A stretch of DNA of 64,000 nt from a bacterium (GTDB taxonomy: Bacteria > UBA8248). The stretch lies in NCBI GenBank assembly GCA_965218885.1, contig OZ244713.1, positions 2,800,769 through 2,864,768 of the forward strand, written 5' to 3'. The notes under the pieces were generated by a model. That model was not told where the DNA came from. It saw nothing but the letters and a program-made list of their open reading frames with translations, and made no database searches. The translations under genes and the position numbers were made by a program. Shown here one piece after another: positions 44,711-52,400 of this stretch (position 1 is the stretch's first letter; each line of letters starts with the position of its first letter).

Positions 44711-45349
44711 CTAAAGTATCCTGGCGATGTATTTTCTGTCCGAGAAGGCGAATTCGCGTATCCATTTGGCGAGTTCACGGTACAGATGCGTTTCCGCGTC
44801 CTCTTCCATGCTCGCCGTGTAGATGGGCATCCAGCCCATGAGGTGCTCATCCATGAACCGCGCGCTTAAAGATAGTTTCTCCCGCGCGAGGTCGGCGCTT
44901 CCATCTTCCCAGGCGTCGGCTTCTTCCGTGGCGAGCCGGGCCAGGAATTCGAGCTCTACGCTTAAATGATCCATCGCCAGGACGCTGGGGTGGGCGAGAG
45001 CGGCGCTGCCGCGTCCGGGGTTGTAGCCGCAGGCCCGGTAGAAATCGGCCACCTCGTCCGTCCTCTTCGAATTCAGATGTCCGCTTTCATCCATCAGGGC
45101 GGCTTCGTAGGGAGGAGAGGAGAGCACGAACAGGTTTGTGAAATCGACCCTGAGCTTTTGGAGGGCTTCTTCGGTGATATCGAATTTTTCCGGGAACAAG
45201 AACGGGTAGTTCTCTTGTAGGAACGCCGCGAGTTCCGAATCGAGCGGGTCGAGCATCGCCCGGGCCTGCACCCGGTAGAGTTGCGCGCGGAGCCTCGCCT
45301 GTTCGGCGTTTTCAGAGTGTGAGGCGCGGCGCTTCCAGCGAAGACTCAT
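44711..45349 (-). CDS. TorD/DmsD family redox-enzyme maturation chaperone
   Basis: ATG 45349 overlaps the oxidoreductase stop; PPYEAA, VADFYRACG, DHLSVELEFL, FMDEHLMGW. Confidence 0.9.
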   Translation of the reverse strand: MSLRWKRRASHSENAEQARLRAQLYRVQARAMLDPLDSELAAFLQENYPFLFPEKFDITEEALQKLRVDFTNLFVLSSPPYEAALMDESGHLNSKRTDEVADFYRACGYNPGRGSAALAHPSVLAMDHLSVELEFLARLATEEADAWEDGSADLAREKLSLSARFMDEHLMGWMPIYTASMEEDAETHLYRELAKWIREFAFSDRKYIARIL

Positions 45350-48222
45350 TCGGAGATGGTGTAGGCCTCGGCCTGGGGCTTGTTGGGCCGGGCGAACCAC
45401 AGCGGGCGCCTGAGGTTGTCGGGGCCGGGCGCGGGCTTCGTCATCTCGAGCCATTGCTTGTAGTGCTCGAAACTCTTCTTCGTATCGACGCTGATGTCGC
45501 CGTAGCGATCCGCCGCCCCCGCCTTCGTGACCCGCACCTTCTGGTGCCAGCAGTGCATCCCGCTCACCGGATCGGGGTTGACCGGGAAGGTGAGGTTCTG
45601 GTTCACGCCCACCTCGCGCCACCAGATGCGCTCCGTGTCGGGGTCGTCGCTCTTGAAGGGCTGGACGCCGTGGACTTGGCGCATGGTGTATTCCCCATCG
45701 CCCTTCTCATCGAGGCGAACGACGGCGGAGGCGATCTTGGGCGCTCCCTGGTCTTCGCTCAGACGCCAGCGGCCCAGGTGATGCGCCATGGCGACGATGC
45801 CGGGCCTCAGGCCCTCCGTCACCCAGCATCTCGTGACGAAATGGCCTATCCCGGTCTCGACTTTCGCGAGGTCGCCCGTGTTCAATCCGAGGCGTTTGGC
45901 GTCGTCGGTGTGGAGCCACAGCGGGTTGTTGTGGGTGATCTCGTAGAGCCACTTCACGGCCGAGCGCGTGTGGATGAGGGTGGCGAGGCGATAGTTCGGC
46001 AACAGGTCGAACTCGTTGTTCCCCCGTTCCATGTCGCGCCAGTAGACGTGGGTCTTCATGTATTTGGGTATCGCCTCATCGCCCCAGTTCCAGGCCGCCA
46101 TGGTCGGGCTGTAGAATTCGAGTTTTTTAGACGGCGTGTGGAAGCCCTCCCTCGCCTTGCCGCGGCTCATGTTGCCGATGAGCGCGCCGTCTTTCCAGAC
46201 CGAGCCCGTCGCCTCATCCACGTGGGCGTCGTGCATCGCCTCATCCGGTATCTCGTGCATGTGAGGCTCGTATACGTTTTCCTCTACGGCGAAAACACCG
46301 TATTTGCGCATGTATTCGAGAGGCGTCAAGCCTTCTTTCTCGGCGGCTTCGGGCAATCCCGGAACGCCGTTTTCGAACATCCACTGGTAGTATTCGTTCA
46401 CCGTGATCTTCGCGCCCGGCCTGTAGGGACTCTCGAAATATTGCCGGATGCCGAGCGAGCCGTCGGGGTCGATGCGCCAGGAGAGTTCGATGTGGAGCTC
46501 GTCCTCCTCCCACACTTCGCCGGGGTTCGTCTCCCGCGTAGTTTCGAACGTCTCGCCCATCTTCTCGCGCAGCGCCCGCAGGACGGGCTGGCGGAAGCCC
46601 ACCCATTTCGTGGGGTGCGTCTCCTGGCTCTGGTTGTCGTGGCGTTCCGTCGCGTTGCCCATGGGCAGAATGTAGTCCGCGAACCAAGCCGTCTCGCTCC
46701 AGGTGGGGGTGAGCGCCACGTGGCAGCCTATCTTGTCGTGGTCTTTGAGCATATCCACCCACATGAAGCCGTCGGGGTTCGTCCACACCGGGTTATAGAC
46801 CCGCGTGAAATAGACGTCGACGCTGTGGCCCTTGTCCTTCACGAGGTGGGGCATCAGGAAACTCATCTCGAAGAAGGCGAGAGGGTATTCCCGGGGAAAG
46901 AGAAGCTCGTTCCAGTCTTTGGGCCCCGGAGCGGGGTTGGGGTGTTTGGGCACGAATTTGTGCGTGCTCGCCAGGTGGGTTCCGCCCACCGTGCCCACCG
47001 CGCCCGTCAGGGACGGCAGAAAGTGCAGACACCGCGCCACCTGCCAGCCGTGCAGGTTGCCGGTGGCGGCCGCGCGCCAGACGTGGATGCAGAGGCGGCT
47101 TCCGGCGCGGGCGACGACCTGGGCGACTTCGGCGATCAAGTCGACGGAAACGCCCGTCTCCTCCGCCGCGTACTCGAAGGTGAACTCCGCGTATTCTTGT
47201 TTAAGTTTCTCGATGAAGTTATCGAAACTCGCCTCATCGTCGGGGTGAACTGTCCGCATGTATTCGGTCCAGTTCATCCACTCCTCGACGAACTGCGCGT
47301 CGAACTGCTCCGTATCGAGCAGGTAGCGCGCGATGGCGAGCAGAATCGCGCTCTCGGTTCCGCTGTAGGCGGGCAGCCAGTAGTCGGCCTTCGCCGCCGT
47401 GTTGGAGAGCCTGGGGTCTATCACGATGAGCTTCGCCCCGCTGGTTTGCGCCTCGATGATGCGCTGGGCCGAGGGGTTGTAGTAGTGGCCCGTGTCGAGG
47501 TGGCTGCTGATCAGCAAAATGGCGTCGGCGTTGGTGAAATCGGGCGAAGGCCTGTCCGATCCGTTCCAGAGGAACTGGCCGATGCGGGCCGAGGAGCTGC
47601 ACACGTTGGTGTGGCTGTTGTGGCCGTCCACGCCCCAGCCGGCGAGCGTCTTGAACATGTAGCCGTCCTCGCCGGGGCGTCCCACGTGGTAGATGACGCC
47701 GTTTCGCCGCTCCGCCTGAATCGCCTCGCGAATACGCCCGGCGATGTCGTCGAGCGCCTCGTCCCAACTCACGCGCTCCCACTTGCCCTCGCCGCGCTCT
47801 CCCACGCGCTTCAGGGGATAGAAGATGCGGTCGGGGTCGTACACCTGGTTGAGCGTCACCCATCCCTTGGCGCAGTTTCGCCCGCGCGAGGCGGGGTGGA
47901 GGGGATTCCCCTCGATTTTTCTGATCTTCATGTCGTCCTTGTCGACGTAGGCCAGAAGCCCGCATCCCGCCTCGCAGTTGAAGCAAAGCGTCGGAACCAG
48001 CGCGTAGTTTCTCGCTACTTTCTGCGGCCACTTGGTGCTTTCGTATTCCGTCCAGTTGTCCCATTTGTCGGGACTCGGGTAGGAGGTGAGAGCGCCGTTC
48101 GTGTTCGTGTAGTTGAGTTGGCCCGCCGGGGCTGCGGGCGGGGCTTTGGCCAGCAGGTCGGGACGGCCCAAAGAGGCGATGTCTCGCGCGCCCTTGCCGA
48201 CTTGAAGATGACTTGTGCTCAT
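45346..48222 (-). CDS. Molybdopterin (DMSO reductase family) oxidoreductase catalytic subunit, no Tat signal
   Basis: CFNCEAGC...NCAKG Fe-S motif, DPDRIFYPLKRVGERGEGKWERVSWDEALDDIA, HTNVCSSSAR, VIDPRLSNTA, C-terminal binding domain. Confidence 0.93.
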   Translation of the reverse strand: MSTSHLQVGKGARDIASLGRPDLLAKAPPAAPAGQLNYTNTNGALTSYPSPDKWDNWTEYESTKWPQKVARNYALVPTLCFNCEAGCGLLAYVDKDDMKIRKIEGNPLHPASRGRNCAKGWVTLNQVYDPDRIFYPLKRVGERGEGKWERVSWDEALDDIAGRIREAIQAERRNGVIYHVGRPGEDGYMFKTLAGWGVDGHNSHTNVCSSSARIGQFLWNGSDRPSPDFTNADAILLISSHLDTGHYYNPSAQRIIEAQTSGAKLIVIDPRLSNTAAKADYWLPAYSGTESAILLAIARYLLDTEQFDAQFVEEWMNWTEYMRTVHPDDEASFDNFIEKLKQEYAEFTFEYAAEETGVSVDLIAEVAQVVARAGSRLCIHVWRAAATGNLHGWQVARCLHFLPSLTGAVGTVGGTHLASTHKFVPKHPNPAPGPKDWNELLFPREYPLAFFEMSFLMPHLVKDKGHSVDVYFTRVYNPVWTNPDGFMWVDMLKDHDKIGCHVALTPTWSETAWFADYILPMGNATERHDNQSQETHPTKWVGFRQPVLRALREKMGETFETTRETNPGEVWEEDELHIELSWRIDPDGSLGIRQYFESPYRPGAKITVNEYYQWMFENGVPGLPEAAEKEGLTPLEYMRKYGVFAVEENVYEPHMHEIPDEAMHDAHVDEATGSVWKDGALIGNMSRGKAREGFHTPSKKLEFYSPTMAAWNWGDEAIPKYMKTHVYWRDMERGNNEFDLLPNYRLATLIHTRSAVKWLYEITHNNPLWLHTDDAKRLGLNTGDLAKVETGIGHFVTRCWVTEGLRPGIVAMAHHLGRWRLSEDQGAPKIASAVVRLDEKGDGEYTMRQVHGVQPFKSDDPDTERIWWREVGVNQNLTFPVNPDPVSGMHCWHQKVRVTKAGAADRYGDISVDTKKSFEHYKQWLEMTKPAPGPDNLRRPLWFARPNKPQAEAYTISE

Positions 48223-48240
48223 AATCTTGAAACTCCCGGA

Positions 48241-49761
48241 TTACGAAAGGGGAACGGCCTGTCCGGCCTTCACCCAGATTTTATCCCAAAGATACGCGCC
48301 CGCCATGGCCATGATGCCGGCCAGCACCGCGCCAAAACCGCCGAAGCCGCCCGCCCAAAGCAGGAGCAGTGGAACGAGGCATCCCACGATGACGGCGCCT
48401 CCCCAGAAATCGTTCTTGAACGGTCCGCTCGTCAGCAGGTGGATCGCCCGCTCATGCGCCACGGAGCCGAAGCGATGCACGAGAATCGAGAACACGAGGA
48501 TGCACAGGTGCAGCAGGATGAGAATGGCGAGCAGCCCGCCCAGGATGTTCAGGACGGACGCTTGATTCGCGATGGGGAAGAGCGTGGCGAAGAGAAGCAG
48601 GATCGCCGCGCCCTTCAAGCCCGATTGTACGCCGATGTCGATAGTGTTCTCGCTTCCTTTCCACAAATCGCGCGCCGAGGCCTGGGCGAAGAAAAAGCCG
48701 GTATATATCGATGCGAGTACGCCCATGACGATGGTGGGCCACAGGATGAGGCCCATGAAGCCCGACGCGCCGAACATGGCGCCAAGCACCCAGAGTAGGG
48801 TGAGGGCGCCGTCGAGCGCGATGAACCACGTGCCCCACGCCATCCAACTGCCCCAGTTCGAGCGGAGCATGATGTAGTAGAACCGCTCGGGCCGCTTGAG
48901 GTCGGTGACGAGCACCGCTCCCGTGGCGGCCAGAAGGATTCCGCTCAGCGCGGGCATCCAGAAGGAGAACAGCGAACTTTTGAAGCCGAACGCCCACAGA
49001 AACAGGCTGATGACCAAAAGACCCGTGCTCGCGCCCTTGGTCAGCAGATAGGTGATGATCTTCGTCTCCCAGGGAACCTCGTGGAAGGTGTCGTAAACGG
49101 TGCGGCTATCGCCTGGCTTGTTCTCCCACTCGGGCACGACGTCTTCTCTTTCCATGTCCATCTCGCCCTGCTTGTAGATGCCCGACTGGCCCGCTTCCGT
49201 GGGATCCAGGAGTTGGCGGCTGCCCTCGAGATAATAGATGTTGGGCGCCGTGTTGTATTCGGGCTTTCTCACCTGGTAGGGGCGCTGCGTGGTGAGTTTC
49301 GATATCTTCGAATCCGCATCCTCCACGTCGCCGAACACGCGGCACTGCGTGGGGCAGACCACCACGCAGGCGGGCTCCAGGCCCACTTCGAGGCGGTTCG
49401 CGCAGAAATTGCATTTCTCCGCCGTCATCGTGTTGGGGTCGATGAAGAGTTGATCGTACGGACACGCCGCGATGCAGGATTTACACCCGATGCACCAATT
49501 CGGGTCCAGGTCCACGATTCCGTCGCTGCGTCTGAAAAGCGCCTTCGTCGGGCAAATGTTCTGACAGGGCGCATCGTCGCATTGATTGCACAGGACGGGC
49601 AGAAATTCCCTTCTGGTGCTCGGGAAGGCGCCTTTTTCAACCTCTTTCACCCAGCATCGCCAGACGCCGATGGGAATATCGTGTTCAGATTTACACGCGA
49701 TTGTGCAAGCATGACATCCGATGCAGGATTCGAGGTCGATCGCCATTGCATACTTGGGCAT
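48241..49761 (-). CDS. Fused 4x[4Fe-4S] ferredoxin and NrfD/PsrC-type membrane anchor
   Basis: CIGCHACTIAC, CNQCDDAPC..CP, CIGCKSCIAACP, CNFC..PAC..CP; then LVTDLKRPERF and SWMAWG TM region. Confidence 0.92.
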   Translation of the reverse strand: MPKYAMAIDLESCIGCHACTIACKSEHDIPIGVWRCWVKEVEKGAFPSTRREFLPVLCNQCDDAPCQNICPTKALFRRSDGIVDLDPNWCIGCKSCIAACPYDQLFIDPNTMTAEKCNFCANRLEVGLEPACVVVCPTQCRVFGDVEDADSKISKLTTQRPYQVRKPEYNTAPNIYYLEGSRQLLDPTEAGQSGIYKQGEMDMEREDVVPEWENKPGDSRTVYDTFHEVPWETKIITYLLTKGASTGLLVISLFLWAFGFKSSLFSFWMPALSGILLAATGAVLVTDLKRPERFYYIMLRSNWGSWMAWGTWFIALDGALTLLWVLGAMFGASGFMGLILWPTIVMGVLASIYTGFFFAQASARDLWKGSENTIDIGVQSGLKGAAILLLFATLFPIANQASVLNILGGLLAILILLHLCILVFSILVHRFGSVAHERAIHLLTSGPFKNDFWGGAVIVGCLVPLLLLWAGGFGGFGAVLAGIMAMAGAYLWDKIWVKAGQAVPLS

Positions 49762-49909: not shown

Positions 49910-50488
49910 ATGATGGCAGGAGCGAGCATCAGGCCGAAACTCGCGTGCCTGGCAAGAGGCCTCACACTCGCCCGTATACTGGCGATTCCTGCATTCTTAT
50001 GGGTTTTCTTCCGCTTGGAGTCCGCTCCCGACCTCAGGTGGCGGATGTTGCTCATCGCCGTTTACGCCTACGCGGTCTTGAGCGACTTGACTGACGGCCC
50101 CTTGGCGAGGCGCGCAGGCGCTGCGAGTTATTTCTGGGGCCGGGTGGACGCCTTCTCGGACGTCGCCTTCAACGCGGCGGCGCTCTCGGCCGCCGCATGG
50201 ACGGGGCGGGTCGGCCCCTGGGCGCCCCTTGGAGTCTTGGCGCTGGGCGCTCAGTTCCTGTGGCGCTGCCGGAGGGAGCTCGGGAGCGAGGGCGATTCCC
50301 TGCCCGAGGATGTGGCGGGCAAGTGGGCGGGGGTGCTTTTCTATGCGCTGGTGGGCGGCGTCGTCTTCGAGATTAGCTTTTCGTGGGACTGGCTGAAGCC
50401 TGTCCTCCTCTGGCTCGACCGCCTGGTTTTTCTCTACGCTTTATATTTACTCATCCGAAACGGCCTCTTGCCTCATCGACGCCTTTAG
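49910..50488 (+). CDS. CDP-alcohol phosphatidyltransferase family protein
   Basis: LTLARI, SDLTDGPLARR, GRVDAFSD (DxxDGxxAR...G..D..D). Confidence 0.85.
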   Translation: MMAGASIRPKLACLARGLTLARILAIPAFLWVFFRLESAPDLRWRMLLIAVYAYAVLSDLTDGPLARRAGAASYFWGRVDAFSDVAFNAAALSAAAWTGRVGPWAPLGVLALGAQFLWRCRRELGSEGDSLPEDVAGKWAGVLFYALVGGVVFEISFSWDWLKPVLLWLDRLVFLYALYLLIRNGLLPHRRL

Positions 50489-51429
50489 ATGTTCTGCTTC
50501 TTTTTTCCGAACAGATCCGCATACGCTTTCGGCATGAACAATAGGCCGATCGTCCCGTTCGCCAGCATGAAGGTCAGGTGGGAGACGAGGCTGTAGGCGA
50601 GCAGGTCCGCTTCCGCCGCATAGTCCTTGAAGAAGAATATCCATGCGGCCTGGGAGGTGCCCAGATGCGCCACCGTCACCGGAAGCGCCCCTATCATGAA
50701 AACGAGCGGCAGGAACGTCAGAAGCCGCAGCAGCGGTATGTCCATCCCGAAGAGCGTCAGGGCGTATTTGTGGACGAACAAGGAGAGGAGAAAAACGGAG
50801 CCCTTGAGCGCGAGGACCAGGAGACCCTGCCTGAAGCGGACCGCCCGGAAAGTGTTGAGCAGGGTGTGGCCGCCGATTTTCTCGCCGATAACGCCCAGAC
50901 CGCCTCGCGCCACCTGGGTGATGAGAAGCCAGAAACACCCAAGTCCCAGGGGCAGAGTGATGAGAATGATCGGCGCGCCGCCCGGAAAGGCGATGACACC
51001 GATTGTGGCGAACGAAATCAGGTTCGTGACTTCCAGAAGAATGAGCATGGCGACCGTGCTTGTGATCTCGGCGAGCGGGGTCTGGAACCTGCGGTGAAAA
51101 TAAAGCGCCAGCGCCACCTGTGCGAGTTGGGTGTTGATGATGGAGACGACGTAGGTGACGGCGCGCACGGGCAGCAGCGTCCGGAAGTCGAGCGGGCCGT
51201 GGAACCAGCGGATCATTTTGCTCAGGACGAAGGTGTCCATCAGGAAAAAACAGATGGAAAAACACGCCATCAGCACGAGGAAGGGCGCAAGCCTCGCCTT
51301 CGATATGGCGAGGACGAACTCGTTGAAGGGGATTCGCCAGAAAATGATGAGGAATATCACCACCGTCAGGCCGATGGGGATGAGTTGCCCGGCTTTGCCT
51401 GATGGATGAGAATCCTGGTTTTGCTCCAA
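50485..51429 (-). CDS. Lysylphosphatidylglycerol synthase TM-domain (flippase-like) protein
   Basis: Multi-TM; LPVTVAHLGTSQAAWIFFF resembles the LPG_synthase_TM C-terminal motif. Confidence 0.7.
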   Translation of the reverse strand: MEQNQDSHPSGKAGQLIPIGLTVVIFLIIFWRIPFNEFVLAISKARLAPFLVLMACFSICFFLMDTFVLSKMIRWFHGPLDFRTLLPVRAVTYVVSIINTQLAQVALALYFHRRFQTPLAEITSTVAMLILLEVTNLISFATIGVIAFPGGAPIILITLPLGLGCFWLLITQVARGGLGVIGEKIGGHTLLNTFRAVRFRQGLLVLALKGSVFLLSLFVHKYALTLFGMDIPLLRLLTFLPLVFMIGALPVTVAHLGTSQAAWIFFFKDYAAEADLLAYSLVSHLTFMLANGTIGLLFMPKAYADLFGKKKQNI

Positions 51430-51455
51430 AGCGAAACTCCTTGAAGGCGCAGAGG

Positions 51456-52400
51456 CTATTCGCGGTGCGGCAGTGAGAGGTCCAGAATTTCATCGACGCC
51501 GGTGGAGGTGATGGGCATGGCGTTTCTGGTTTCCTCATCACTGCACAGATGTTCGTAGAATATAATGTCGAATACGGTGCGGCTCATGGGGGAAGAGGGG
51601 GAGAGGCGGCTGATGATGCTCGACGCGGCCCGGGCCGGCCTTCTGGGAATCGTCAGAATTCGGGGCCGTTTCCCGAGCCTTTGCCCGGCGCGCATGAGCA
51701 GTTCGCGGTAGAGGAGGGTGTCCGGCCCCACGAGGTTCATGCGCGTGAGCGGCGCCTCGGGATGAAGGAGCGCCCATTCAACCGCGCTCAGTACGTCGCC
51801 CAGGTATATCGGCTGGACGCGCACCGCGCCTCCCGCCACGAGGGGGACTACCGAGGAGGCGAGCAGTCTTTTTATCTGATTCGTGGCCTGTGTGTCGGGC
51901 CCCAGAATCATGGGCACGCGGAAAATGGCGCCCGACCCGAAATTCCCTTCAATCAAATCCTCGGCCTGGCCTTTCGTTCGTAGATATTCATTTTCCGCCC
52001 GGGAGTCCGCGCCCGGAAAACTCAGGTATACGAAGGATTTCACGCCACAGCTTTTACTCGCTTCCACGATGTTTTTCGTGGTGATCAGATTCGCTTGAAG
52101 GAGGGAGTCGCCCGCTCTCGGAACCAGCGAACCCGCCAGGTGCGCCACGCAGTCAGCACCTTCCACGGCGCGCGCGAGGCTTTCGGGGTCGTCGTAGTCC
52201 ACTTCTATCACTTCGGCGGGTAGATCGCGCAGGTTCTCGCTTCGCCCCATGTCCCGGACGAGCGCCCGCAGGCGCATCTGTTCGATGGCCGTATTGGAAC
52301 CTAGGCGTTCGATGAGCGCGTTGCCGACGGCGCCGTTCGCGCCCGTGATGGCGATGTCGATGGGTTTTCTCCCGTGCTGTGGAAGGCGGCCATGCGCAAT
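51456..52400 (-). CDS. NAD-dependent epimerase/dehydratase (SDR-like); start uncertain
   Basis: Rossmann motif IAITGANGAVG lies in frame upstream of ATG 52277; AHLAG, YLRTK (YxxxK). No ATG/GTG/TTG in frame before the upstream stop at 52478. Confidence 0.75.
   Translation of the reverse strand: MAHGRLPQHGRKPIDIAITGANGAVGNALIERLGSNTAIEQMRLRALVRDMGRSENLRDLPAEVIEVDYDDPESLARAVEGADCVAHLAGSLVPRAGDSLLQANLITTKNIVEASKSCGVKSFVYLSFPGADSRAENEYLRTKGQAEDLIEGNFGSGAIFRVPMILGPDTQATNQIKRLLASSVVPLVAGGAVRVQPIYLGDVLSAVEWALLHPEAPLTRMNLVGPDTLLYRELLMRAGQRLGKRPRILTIPRRPARAASSIISRLSPSSPMSRTVFDIIFYEHLCSDEETRNAMPITSTGVDEILDLSLPHRE

What the first reader, a model, noticed from the sequence alone, without database searches (positions are those of the whole stretch)
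44711..49761. Tat-less complex iron-sulfur molybdoenzyme with a ferredoxin-NrfD fusion
Seen: neither the catalytic subunit nor the ferredoxin has a twin-arginine signal, the 4x[4Fe-4S] subunit is fused N-terminally to the NrfD/PsrC anchor, and a TorD chaperone is retained. The putative Mo ligand region is HTNVCSSSAR (Cys). Established: Psr/Ttr/Nrf-type soluble subunits are normally periplasmic. Inference: a cytoplasm-facing, quinone-linked enzyme with inverted anchor topology and unknown substrate (sulfur or metalloid oxyanions are candidates).
Basis: partly seen in the sequence, partly recalled or inferred. Interest (0 to 1): 0.55.

Follow-up and report, generated by a model that had tools for sequence, protein, structure and literature searches.

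The report
Inward-facing fused sulfite-dehydrogenase-like molybdoenzyme
These three genes encode a membrane-bound molybdenum enzyme whose active site faces the cell interior and which probably oxidises sulfite to sulfate; the fused, signal-less layout is real, but it is the normal, already published form of a very widespread family.

Summary
The minus-strand operon encodes three proteins:
- a 506-aa fusion of a four-cluster ferredoxin to an 8-helix NrfD anchor;
- a 958-aa Mo-bisPGD catalytic subunit with FS0 cysteines and Cys208 as the predicted Mo ligand;
- an ATGA-coupled NarJ/TorD chaperone.

Neither large protein has a twin-arginine leader, and no upstream extension is possible.

The inward-facing inference is supported. 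In 33 family members, K+R averages 10.6 on the ferredoxin side of the anchor and 0.8 on the other side. Canonical anchors with Tat partners lack this bias.

The architecture is not unusual:
- It occurs in more than 593 species across many phyla.
- B and C are fused in 64 of 67 assessable loci.
- No locus has a Tat leader.
- It was described in print as the psrBC-psrA / PSRLC3 complex of green sulfur bacteria, Marine Group A and Chloroflexus.
- SoeABC is the characterised inward-facing relative.

In other phyla the operon sits beside SulP sulfate permeases, persulfide-dioxygenase-rhodanese fusions and TauE sulfite exporters. This points to sulfite:quinone oxidoreductase activity, which has never been tested biochemically.

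This scan has found the same family repeatedly on other DNA.

Verdict: an ordinary new member of a known kind. Interest is low.

The parts
48241..49761 (-). Fused B-C subunit (506 aa): four-cluster ferredoxin joined to the NrfD/PsrC membrane anchor
   Evidence: Pfam finds Fer4_11 and NrfD in one ORF. A GAGGA Shine-Dalgarno sequence precedes the ATG. B and C lie in one ORF in 64 of 67 related loci.
49207..49761 (-). B domain, residues 1-185: PsrB-like ferredoxin with four [4Fe-4S] motifs and no signal peptide
   Evidence: It matches 2vpw_B (PsrB) over residues 1-180 at 2.3e-55; the family profile gives 7.2e-68. All 16 Cys are invariant.
49069..49206 (-). Hydrophilic linker, residues 186-231, between the ferredoxin and the first membrane helix
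   Evidence: Sequence and hydropathy. The AF2 model has low pLDDT here. Linker length varies among loci (gap column).
48244..49068 (-). C domain, residues 232-506: NrfD-type anchor with 8 membrane helices and long K/R-rich loops on the ferredoxin side
   Evidence: The AF2 model shows helices 232-257, 263-287, 306-329, 333-359, 370-394, 400-428, 449-471 and 475-502 at pLDDT above 90. Foldseek gives 2vpw_C at TMt 0.71 plus ActC chains.
45346..48222 (-). Catalytic A subunit (958 aa): Mo/W-bisPGD oxidoreductase without a Tat leader
   Evidence: Pfam finds three domains. The best solved relative is PsrA, 2vpw_A, at 7e-40. Relatives are 57-65% identical across phyla.
47872..47985 (-). FS0 [4Fe-4S] motif of the A subunit: C80-x2-C83-x3-C87 ... 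C117
   Evidence: Translation checked. Molybdop_Fe4S4 covers residues 75-128.
47599..47601 (-). Codon of Cys208, the predicted molybdenum ligand (in SHTNVCSSSA)
   Evidence: It aligns with Cys173 of PsrA and the equivalent Cys of ArrA. The codon was verified.
44711..45349 (-). NarJ/TorD-family maturation chaperone (212 aa), translationally coupled to the A gene by an ATGA overlap
   Evidence: PF02613 at 6.9e-18 and TIGR03482 at 5.6e-12. The overlap was read. A homologous gene follows A in Nitrospinaceae and in at least 9 loci of other phyla.

Best explanation
This is a cytoplasm-facing complex iron-sulfur molybdoenzyme of the PSRLC3 / psrBC-psrA type, a two-polypeptide relative of SoeABC.

The fused B-C protein inserts with its ferredoxin domain and all long loops in the cytoplasm. 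That is the reverse of PsrC. The A subunit receives its cofactors with the help of the NarJ/TorD-like chaperone. It then docks on the ferredoxin domain inside the cell and is never exported.

The most likely reaction is oxidation of cytoplasmic sulfite to sulfate at the Cys208-ligated Mo centre. [quoted passage not shown]

Shown here: domain content, fusion, absence of Tat leaders, K/R topology bias, and family conservation.

Inferred: quinone reduction, sulfite as substrate, and the direction of the reaction.

This genome has no Dsr, Apr or Sox pathway. The role here would therefore be removal of sulfite from assimilatory or organosulfur metabolism, not lithotrophic sulfur oxidation.
For: Topology:
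- No RR leader is found in A or BC here or in 80 loci from about 10 phyla.
- K+R averages 10.6 on the ferredoxin side against 0.8 on the other side in 33 family members, with the same direction in every sequence.
- Three canonical NrfD anchors whose partners carry Tat leaders show 5-6 against 4-6 at the homologous positions.
- The model has 8 membrane helices with a PsrC/ActC fold.
- The genome owns TatC and uses a normal leader on another molybdoenzyme.

Family:
- B-C-A order and the fusion are conserved.
- The fused, Tat-less sequences form a supported clade (SH-aLRT 94). It lies inside a superclade with 100% support on a long stem, apart from Tat-bearing Psr/Phs-like enzymes.

Function (neighbours in other phyla):
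- SulP sulfate permease is adjacent in 18 loci.
- A metallo-beta-lactamase + rhodanese fusion, the persulfide dioxygenase type that makes sulfite, is adjacent in 9 loci.
- The TauE/SafE sulfite exporter is adjacent in 4 loci.
- MobA is adjacent in 2 loci.
- A CsoR-type regulator sits directly upstream in Thermomicrobium roseum.

Literature:
- The psrBC fusion without Tat is described in green sulfur bacteria, Marine Group A, Caldilinea and Chloroflexus, and is proposed to oxidise sulfite (PMC3906813).
- SoeABC is accepted as N-side-facing with an inverted anchor (PMC8076601).
- Dahl 2013 treats the green-sulfur-bacterial complex as SoeABC (quoted in PMC8232776).
Against: - No member of the fused family has been purified or assayed.
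- I could not fetch a bona fide SoeA or a green-sulfur-bacterial sequence. Orthology to the characterised enzyme therefore rests on published trees, not on a test made here.
- In this genome the operon's neighbours (QueA, SpoU methylase, aminotransferase, CDP-alcohol phosphatidyltransferase) give no functional hint.
- The genome has no DsrA, AprA or SoxB over cut-off.
- It has only weak hits to the PDO-rhodanese fusion and a distant SulP.
- SulP transporters are not specific for sulfate.
- The best named HMM hits are reductases (PhsA, TtrB), all far below their cut-offs.
Confidence: 0.6

Rival explanations
1. A cytoplasm-facing quinol-oxidising reductase of an inorganic sulfur compound (polysulfide, thiosulfate or tetrathionate). 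It would be a Psr/Phs/Ttr-type enzyme working in the reductive direction inside the cell.
For: The closest solved structures and named models are reductases: PsrA/PsrB of Thermus, and PhsA and TtrB as top NCBIfam hits. Wright et al. annotated the same layout as polysulfide reductase (PMC3906813). A rhodanese/persulfide neighbourhood would also suit a sulfane-sulfur substrate.
Against: All equivalog scores are far below cut-off: PhsA 195 against 694, TtrB 184 against 416. The family is carried mainly by aerobic or facultative heterotrophs (Saprospiraceae, Ktedonobacteria, Blastocatellia, Rhodococcus). Sulfate permease and sulfite-exporter neighbours fit an oxidised product. An inward-facing quinol-oxidising reductase of this kind would conserve no energy (inference from established redox-loop principles).
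Confidence: 0.15
2. The same inward-facing architecture acting on a different, not yet recognised cytoplasmic substrate, such as another oxyanion or an organic sulfur or selenium compound. The sulfur-gene neighbours would be only a lineage-specific association.
For: In this genome, and in most of the 80 loci, no sulfur gene is adjacent. This organism lacks the known sulfite-producing dissimilatory pathways. Substrate cannot be read from DMSO-reductase-family sequence alone, as stated for Psr/Phs/Sre in PMC8359478.
Against: A subunits are 57-65% identical across phyla, which argues for one conserved reaction. Every recurrent functional neighbour found concerns sulfite, persulfide or sulfate. 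No arsenic, selenium or nitrogen genes recur.
Confidence: 0.2
3. A normal periplasm-facing enzyme exported by an unrecognised route, such as hitch-hiking on another Tat substrate or a cryptic internal signal.
For: A TorD-family chaperone, usually associated with Tat substrates, is retained. PsrB of Thermus also lacks its own leader and hitch-hikes on PsrA (2vpw_B begins at residue 1).
Against: Here the A subunit, which would have to carry the leader, has none in any of 80 loci. The ferredoxin is covalently N-terminal to the anchor and starts at its first cluster. The K/R bias places that side inside. NarJ shows that such chaperones also serve non-exported enzymes (established knowledge of NarGHI).
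Confidence: 0.03

Closest known systems
PSRLC3 / 'psrBC-psrA' cytoplasmic polysulfide-reductase-like complex (green sulfur bacteria, Marine Group A, Caldilinea, Chloroflexus aggregans, haloarchaea; Frigaard & Bryant 2008 and Gregersen 2011 as cited in PMC3906813 and PMC9324843)
   Same: Both are two-gene enzymes with B and C fused, gene order BC then A, and no Tat leader on A. Both are inferred to face the cytoplasm and are proposed to oxidise sulfite. My related loci include Chloroflexus sp. at 58% identity with the same layout, and haloarchaeal plasmid copies at about 50%.
   Different: I could not fetch a green-sulfur-bacterial sequence, so membership is by architecture and by shared named taxa rather than by a direct tree. 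This copy carries a coupled NarJ/TorD gene, which only a minority of loci show. This organism has no Dsr system to feed it.
SoeABC sulfite:quinone oxidoreductase (Allochromatium vinosum, Aquifex aeolicus, Ruegeria pomeroyi; Dahl 2013, Boughanemi 2020, as described in PMC8076601)
   Same: Both combine a Mo-bisPGD A subunit, a four-cluster B and an NrfD-type C. Neither has Tat leaders. In both, A and B lie on the cytoplasmic (N) side and the anchor is inverted relative to PsrC. Both would pass electrons to quinone.
   Different: SoeABC has three separate subunits encoded in the order A-B-C. Here B and C are one polypeptide encoded before A. Sequence relationship to SoeA was not measured here. 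The fused family has Glu/Asp at residue 493 in helix 8 in 32 of 33 sequences. A canonical PsrC-like control has Arg there, and the review reports a conserved Arg, including in SoeC (PMC8076601). I did not verify that these positions correspond.
PsrABC polysulfide reductase of Thermus thermophilus (PDB 2vpw)
   Same: These are the best solved-structure matches for all three modules: A at 7e-40, B at 2e-55, and the C fold at TMt 0.71. Both use a Cys Mo ligand and an 8-helix anchor.
   Different: PsrA has a Tat leader and the PsrAB subunits are periplasmic. The subunits are separate. The A subunit here is about 190 residues longer, and the K/R topology signal is reversed.
NarGHI respiratory nitrate reductase
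   Same: Both are cytoplasm-facing complex iron-sulfur molybdoenzymes that keep a NarJ-family chaperone without being exported.
   Different: NarGHI is anchored by the dihaem cytochrome b NarI, not by NrfD. The narG model scores only 27 bits against a cut-off of 1084.

Membership tests
Complex iron-sulfur molybdoenzyme (Mo/W-bisPGD, DMSO reductase superfamily) with NrfD anchor | Catalytic subunit with molybdopterin and dinucleotide-binding domains and an N-terminal FS0 cysteine motif | tested here: met
   PF00384, PF01568 and PF04879 are all over cut-off. The FS0 cysteines are C80, C83, C87 and C117.
Complex iron-sulfur molybdoenzyme (Mo/W-bisPGD, DMSO reductase superfamily) with NrfD anchor | Protein ligand to Mo at the conserved position | tested here: met
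   Cys208 aligns with PsrA Cys173 and with the ArrA Cys.
Complex iron-sulfur molybdoenzyme (Mo/W-bisPGD, DMSO reductase superfamily) with NrfD anchor | Four-cluster ferredoxin subunit with 16 conserved Cys | tested here: met
   All 16 Cys are invariant in 33 sequences. The match to PsrB covers its full length.
Complex iron-sulfur molybdoenzyme (Mo/W-bisPGD, DMSO reductase superfamily) with NrfD anchor | Haem-less 8-10 helix NrfD/PsrC-type membrane subunit | tested here: met
   PF03916 at 1.3e-17. The AF2 model has 8 helices. Foldseek finds PsrC and ActC.
PSRLC3 / psrBC-psrA cytoplasmic complex | B and C encoded as one polypeptide | tested here: met
   A single 506-aa ORF here. The fusion is present in 64 of 67 related loci.
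PSRLC3 / psrBC-psrA cytoplasmic complex | Gene order BC before A | tested here: met
PSRLC3 / psrBC-psrA cytoplasmic complex | No Tat leader on the A subunit | tested here: met
PSRLC3 / psrBC-psrA cytoplasmic complex | Clusters phylogenetically with the green-sulfur-bacterial PSRLC3 sequences | tested here: inconclusive
   No Chlorobia sequence could be fetched. The clade does include Chloroflexus, and haloarchaeal plasmid copies are about 50% identical. Wright 2013 lists Chloroflexus and a haloarchaeon (Haladaptatus) with the green-sulfur-bacterial enzymes.
SoeABC sulfite:quinone oxidoreductase | A and B subunits on the cytoplasmic side and NrfD anchor inverted | tested here: met
   No leaders. 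The positive-inside bias is reversed relative to Tat-partnered controls. This is computational evidence only.
SoeABC sulfite:quinone oxidoreductase | Three separate subunits encoded as soeA-soeB-soeC | tested here: not met
   B and C are fused and the order is BC-A.
SoeABC sulfite:quinone oxidoreductase | Orthology to characterised SoeA (A. vinosum D3RNN8, A. aeolicus) | not tested
   No reference sequence was reachable.
SoeABC sulfite:quinone oxidoreductase | Sulfite-dependent quinone reduction | not testable with these tools
   This needs a biochemical assay. Only neighbourhood evidence is available.
Periplasmic Psr/Phs/Ttr/Arr reductases | Twin-arginine leader on the catalytic subunit | tested here: not met
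   Compare the TRRQFIK leader on the canonical PsrA of genome G003 and the TRRTFLK leader of the Azoarcus enzyme.
Periplasmic Psr/Phs/Ttr/Arr reductases | Score over the curated equivalog cut-offs | tested here: not met
   PhsA 195 against 694, ArrA 116 against 1600, TtrA 101 against 1750, TtrB 184 against 416.
NarGHI-type cytoplasmic nitrate reductase | NarG-type catalytic subunit and NarI dihaem anchor | tested here: not met
   narG scores 27 bits against a cut-off of 1084. The anchor is NrfD, not cytochrome b.

The most novel reading that the evidence does not exclude
The very widespread fused, inward-facing family may not be a sulfite dehydrogenase at all. It may act on another cytoplasmic substrate. 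In organisms such as this Nitrospinaceae bacterium, which lack Dsr, Apr, Sox and a clear persulfide dioxygenase, it would then serve an unrecognised housekeeping redox role linked to the quinone pool. A family-specific acidic residue (Glu/Asp493) replacing the canonical helix-8 arginine might reflect a change in proton handling by the inverted anchor.
Probability: 0.2. Interest if true: 0.6.

Novelty: new member of a known kind. Interest (0 to 1): 0.25.

Why it matters
For this window it matters little. The operon is an intact, typical copy of a family whose layout has been in print since 2008-2013 and which this scan has met many times on other DNA.

The family itself is worth a biochemist's attention. 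It occurs in hundreds of species from Chloroflexota, Acidobacteriota, Bacteroidota, Planctomycetota, Actinomycetota, Nitrospinota and haloarchaea. Public annotation calls it only 'molybdopterin-dependent oxidoreductase', 'polysulfide reductase NrfD' or 'formate dehydrogenase', and its activity has never been measured.

If it is the main cytoplasmic sulfite:quinone oxidoreductase of heterotrophs, metagenomic sulfur-cycle budgets that score it as 'psrA' (sulfur reduction) are misreading it.

Tried and rejected
Reaching a reference SoeA or PSRLC3 sequence:
- All three word-index protein searches returned only close family members or fragments without functional names.
- The ESM Atlas gave generic names.
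- The exhaustive representative search gave unnamed distant relatives.
- Cluster look-ups added no names.
- Neither the Dahl 2013 paper nor the Gregersen 2011 paper is held.
- A direct tree with SoeA was therefore not possible.

Other attempts that led nowhere:
- phmmer of the C domain alone against PDB found nothing. The fold search was needed instead.
- My first hydropathy-based helix caller was too crude for the control anchors. I replaced it with profile alignment to the family.
- The own genome offered no second NrfD protein as an internal control. Controls came from other carriers' genomes.

Readings considered and rejected:
- ACIII: there is no cytochrome c, and A retains FS0 and the Cys ligand.
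- The 'FqoABC' formate:quinone idea: one source labels a relative 'formate dehydrogenase', but FdhA models score far below cut-off.
- The dual Sec-Tat insertion model of PMC5449189, rejected by inference. It concerns cofactor-containing extracytoplasmic domains. Here the ferredoxin is N-terminal, starts at its first cluster and has no RR motif.
Full report
WHAT IS THERE

Three co-oriented genes lie on the minus strand.

The first gene, 48241-49761, encodes a 506-aa protein. Its N-terminal 185 residues are a PsrB-like ferredoxin: Fer4_11 in Pfam, and a match to 2vpw_B over residues 1-180 at 2.3e-55. Residues 224-471 match NrfD (PF03916, 1.3e-17). The protein begins 12 residues before its first cluster cysteine. 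All 16 cysteines of the four [4Fe-4S] motifs are invariant in a 33-sequence alignment spanning many phyla.

The second gene, 45346-48222, starts 18 nt after the first gene's stop codon. An upstream extension is therefore impossible. It encodes a 958-aa Mo-bisPGD subunit with the FS0 motif C80/C83/C87/C117. Cys208 aligns with the Mo ligand Cys173 of Thermus PsrA. Its N-terminus is hydrophilic and has no RR motif.

The third gene, 44711-45349, overlaps the second as ATGA. It is a NarJ/TorD-family chaperone.

IS THE MISSING LEADER MEANINGFUL?

The genome is a single 3.9-Mb contig, 94.8% complete. Close relatives are named Nitrospinaceae or Nitrospinota in public records. The genome encodes TatC. 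One of its nine molybdopterin proteins carries a textbook NRRTFLQSS... leader. The organism therefore uses Tat normally, and this enzyme simply is not a Tat substrate.

TOPOLOGY

A published review states that PsrC has both termini on the periplasmic (P) side, the side where PsrB docks. The same review states that SoeC is expected to be inverted (PMC8076601). A ferredoxin fused to the N-terminus of the anchor, without any export signal, must stay in the cytoplasm. The anchor should then be inverted.

I tested this with the positive-inside rule.
- In 33 family members, the loops on the ferredoxin side carry 10.6 K+R on average (minimum 8). The four very short loops on the other side carry 0.8 (maximum 3). 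The direction is the same in every sequence.
- As controls I took three NrfD proteins from other carriers' genomes whose partners have clear Tat leaders. One is a PsrC-like protein whose PsrA begins MGTTRRQFIK.
- These controls align end to end with the family profile, the best at E 6.5e-33. At the homologous positions they show 5-6 against 4-6 K+R, so they lack this bias.
- An AlphaFold model built on the family alignment gives eight membrane helices at pLDDT above 90. It matches PsrC (TMt 0.71) and the ActC chains of alternative complex III.
- The ferredoxin part of the model is poor (pLDDT about 40-70), so I draw nothing from the relative placement of the domains.

The inward-facing, inverted-anchor inference is thus well supported computationally. 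It has not been shown experimentally.

HOW COMMON IS IT?

It is very common.
- The word-index search found thousands of proteins of about 505 aa with the same Fer4 + NrfD content.
- Carriers include Nitrospinaceae (78-98% identity), Chloroflexota including Chloroflexus and Ktedonosporobacter rubrisoli, Acidobacteriota, Bacteroidota (Saprospiraceae, Lewinellaceae), Calditrichota, KSB1 and Pirellulaceae. Identity across phyla is 56-61%.
- Cultured carriers with plasmid-borne copies include Thermomicrobium roseum, Rhodococcus jostii RHA1 and several haloarchaea.
- In the 80 loci kept, the order B-C-A is universal. B and C share one ORF in 64 of 67 assessable cases, and the three exceptions look like frameshifts.
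- No A subunit has a Tat leader.
- All A subunits share the N-terminal motif YPPxExWDDWxEY...WP...VPTxCFNCExxC.

In a quick maximum-likelihood tree, the fused Tat-less sequences form one clade with short internal branches that do not follow taxonomy. That clade sits in a superclade with 100% support on a long stem. The superclade also holds a few unnamed Tat-less and Tat-bearing relatives, and it is separate from the ordinary Tat-bearing Psr/Phs-like enzymes. The careful tree search did not finish, so the tree is a quick one.

WHAT DOES IT DO?

The window's own neighbours are uninformative: QueA, a SpoU methylase, an aminotransferase and a CDP-alcohol phosphatidyltransferase.

Across other phyla the recurrent neighbours all concern oxidised or sulfane sulfur.
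- A SulP sulfate permease is adjacent in 18 loci (Chloroflexota, Bacteroidota, Calditrichota).
- A metallo-beta-lactamase + rhodanese fusion, of the persulfide-dioxygenase type that releases sulfite in the cytoplasm, is adjacent in 9 loci.
- A TauE/SafE sulfite exporter is adjacent in 4 loci.
- MobA is adjacent in 2 loci.
- A NarJ/TorD-like gene is adjacent in at least 9 loci.
- In T. roseum, a CsoR-type regulator is directly upstream.

This pattern fits oxidation of cytoplasmic sulfite to sulfate, with sulfate then exported. The genome in hand has no DsrA, AprA or SoxB over cut-off. It has only weak matches to the PDO-rhodanese fusion. The role here would be disposal of sulfite from assimilatory or organosulfur metabolism, not lithotrophy. 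That step is inference.

COMPARISON WITH WHAT IS KNOWN

Wright et al. 2013 (PMC3906813) describe exactly this layout. They report a psrBC gene fusion, psrBCA order, and PsrA without a Tat signal and therefore cytoplasmic. They find it on a Marine Group A fosmid and in Marine Group II, Caldilinea aerophila and Haladaptatus, and the psrBCA gene order also in Chloroflexus aggregans. They cite Frigaard & Bryant 2008 for the same fusion in green sulfur bacteria, and Gregersen 2011 for the proposal that it oxidises sulfite.

A genome note speaks of '2 genes encoding PSRLC3' (PMC5473276). The legend of a published CISM catalytic-subunit tree, whose references include SoeA (D3RNN8), states that PSRLC3 is inferred to be a sulfite oxidase (PMC9324843). 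A review quoting Dahl 2013 says SoeABC genes are universally present in purple and green sulfur bacteria (PMC8232776).

SoeABC is the characterised inward-facing relative, but it has three separate subunits in A-B-C order. I therefore file this operon under the PSRLC3 / psrBC-psrA type and say that it works like SoeABC. I do not call it SoeABC.

That membership feature remains untested here.

EARLIER NOTES OF THIS SCAN

Look-ups by sequence and by words showed that the same family has been flagged many times on other genomes, with the same verdict. I reached the PSRLC3/SoeABC lead and the neighbourhood result before reading those notes. One note supplied the Wright 2013 reference, which I then read and confirmed.

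VERDICT

The topological inference is supported. The claim of an unusual architecture with an unknown substrate is not supported. This is a new member of a known kind. The substrate assignment (sulfite) is probable but untested. Interest is 0.25.

Noticed in passing
window 48280-48285 (residues 493-494 of the BC protein); alignment A1: In helix 8 the fused family has Glu (29 of 33) or Asp (3 of 33) at residue 493. A canonical Tat-partnered PsrC-like control has Arg at the aligned position (IFRF). A review reports a conserved mid-membrane Arg in helix 8 of nearly all NrfD-like subunits, SoeC included. I did not verify that these positions are the same.
   Followed up: partly
proteins P0366, P0379, P0395 and tree: Three unnamed relatives inside the same 100%-supported superclade share the YPPxExW N-terminal motif but do carry RRxFL Tat leaders. 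Orientation seems to have switched within this lineage.
   Followed up: partly
L034-L063 and other Bacteroidota, Calditrichota and KSB1 loci, N-termini of A: Many A subunits begin with a conserved peptide of about 20 residues, HKPSFIExIAEKLxLIPNLH. It is absent from the Nitrospinaceae copies, which have MSTSHLQVGKGARDIASLGRPDLL instead. It could be a chaperone-binding remnant like the NarG N-terminus.
   Followed up: no
L101:4093-4371 (Thermomicrobium roseum plasmid NC_011961): A CsoR/RcnR-type 'metal-sensitive transcriptional regulator' lies directly upstream of the fused BC gene. Members of this regulator family include persulfide sensors.
   Followed up: no
own genome outside the window, G000:C1:2345304-2347406: One 995-aa open frame starts with a four-cluster-ferredoxin-like sequence (LMIDLERCFGCKSCEAA) and continues into a molybdopterin domain. 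This would be a B-then-A fusion in a single reading frame, the reverse domain order of ActB.
   Followed up: no
L099 (Azoarcus sp. KH32C plasmid) and L100 (Sulfurovum mangrovi plasmid): More distant relatives (33-39% identity) keep the order B, C, A, TorD but with B and C unfused. The Azoarcus A subunit has a Tat leader. Both loci are followed by a shared set of a roughly 370-aa 4Fe-4S protein and small hypothetical proteins.
   Followed up: partly
window 50447-51541 (-): A 364-aa ORF upstream of the operon region has no Pfam match at E 0.01.
   Followed up: no
tree: Within the fused clade, branching does not follow taxonomy. For example, Pirellulaceae pairs with Calditrichaceae, and Pyrinomonadaceae sits with Bacteroidota. 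This suggests frequent horizontal transfer of the operon.
   Followed up: no
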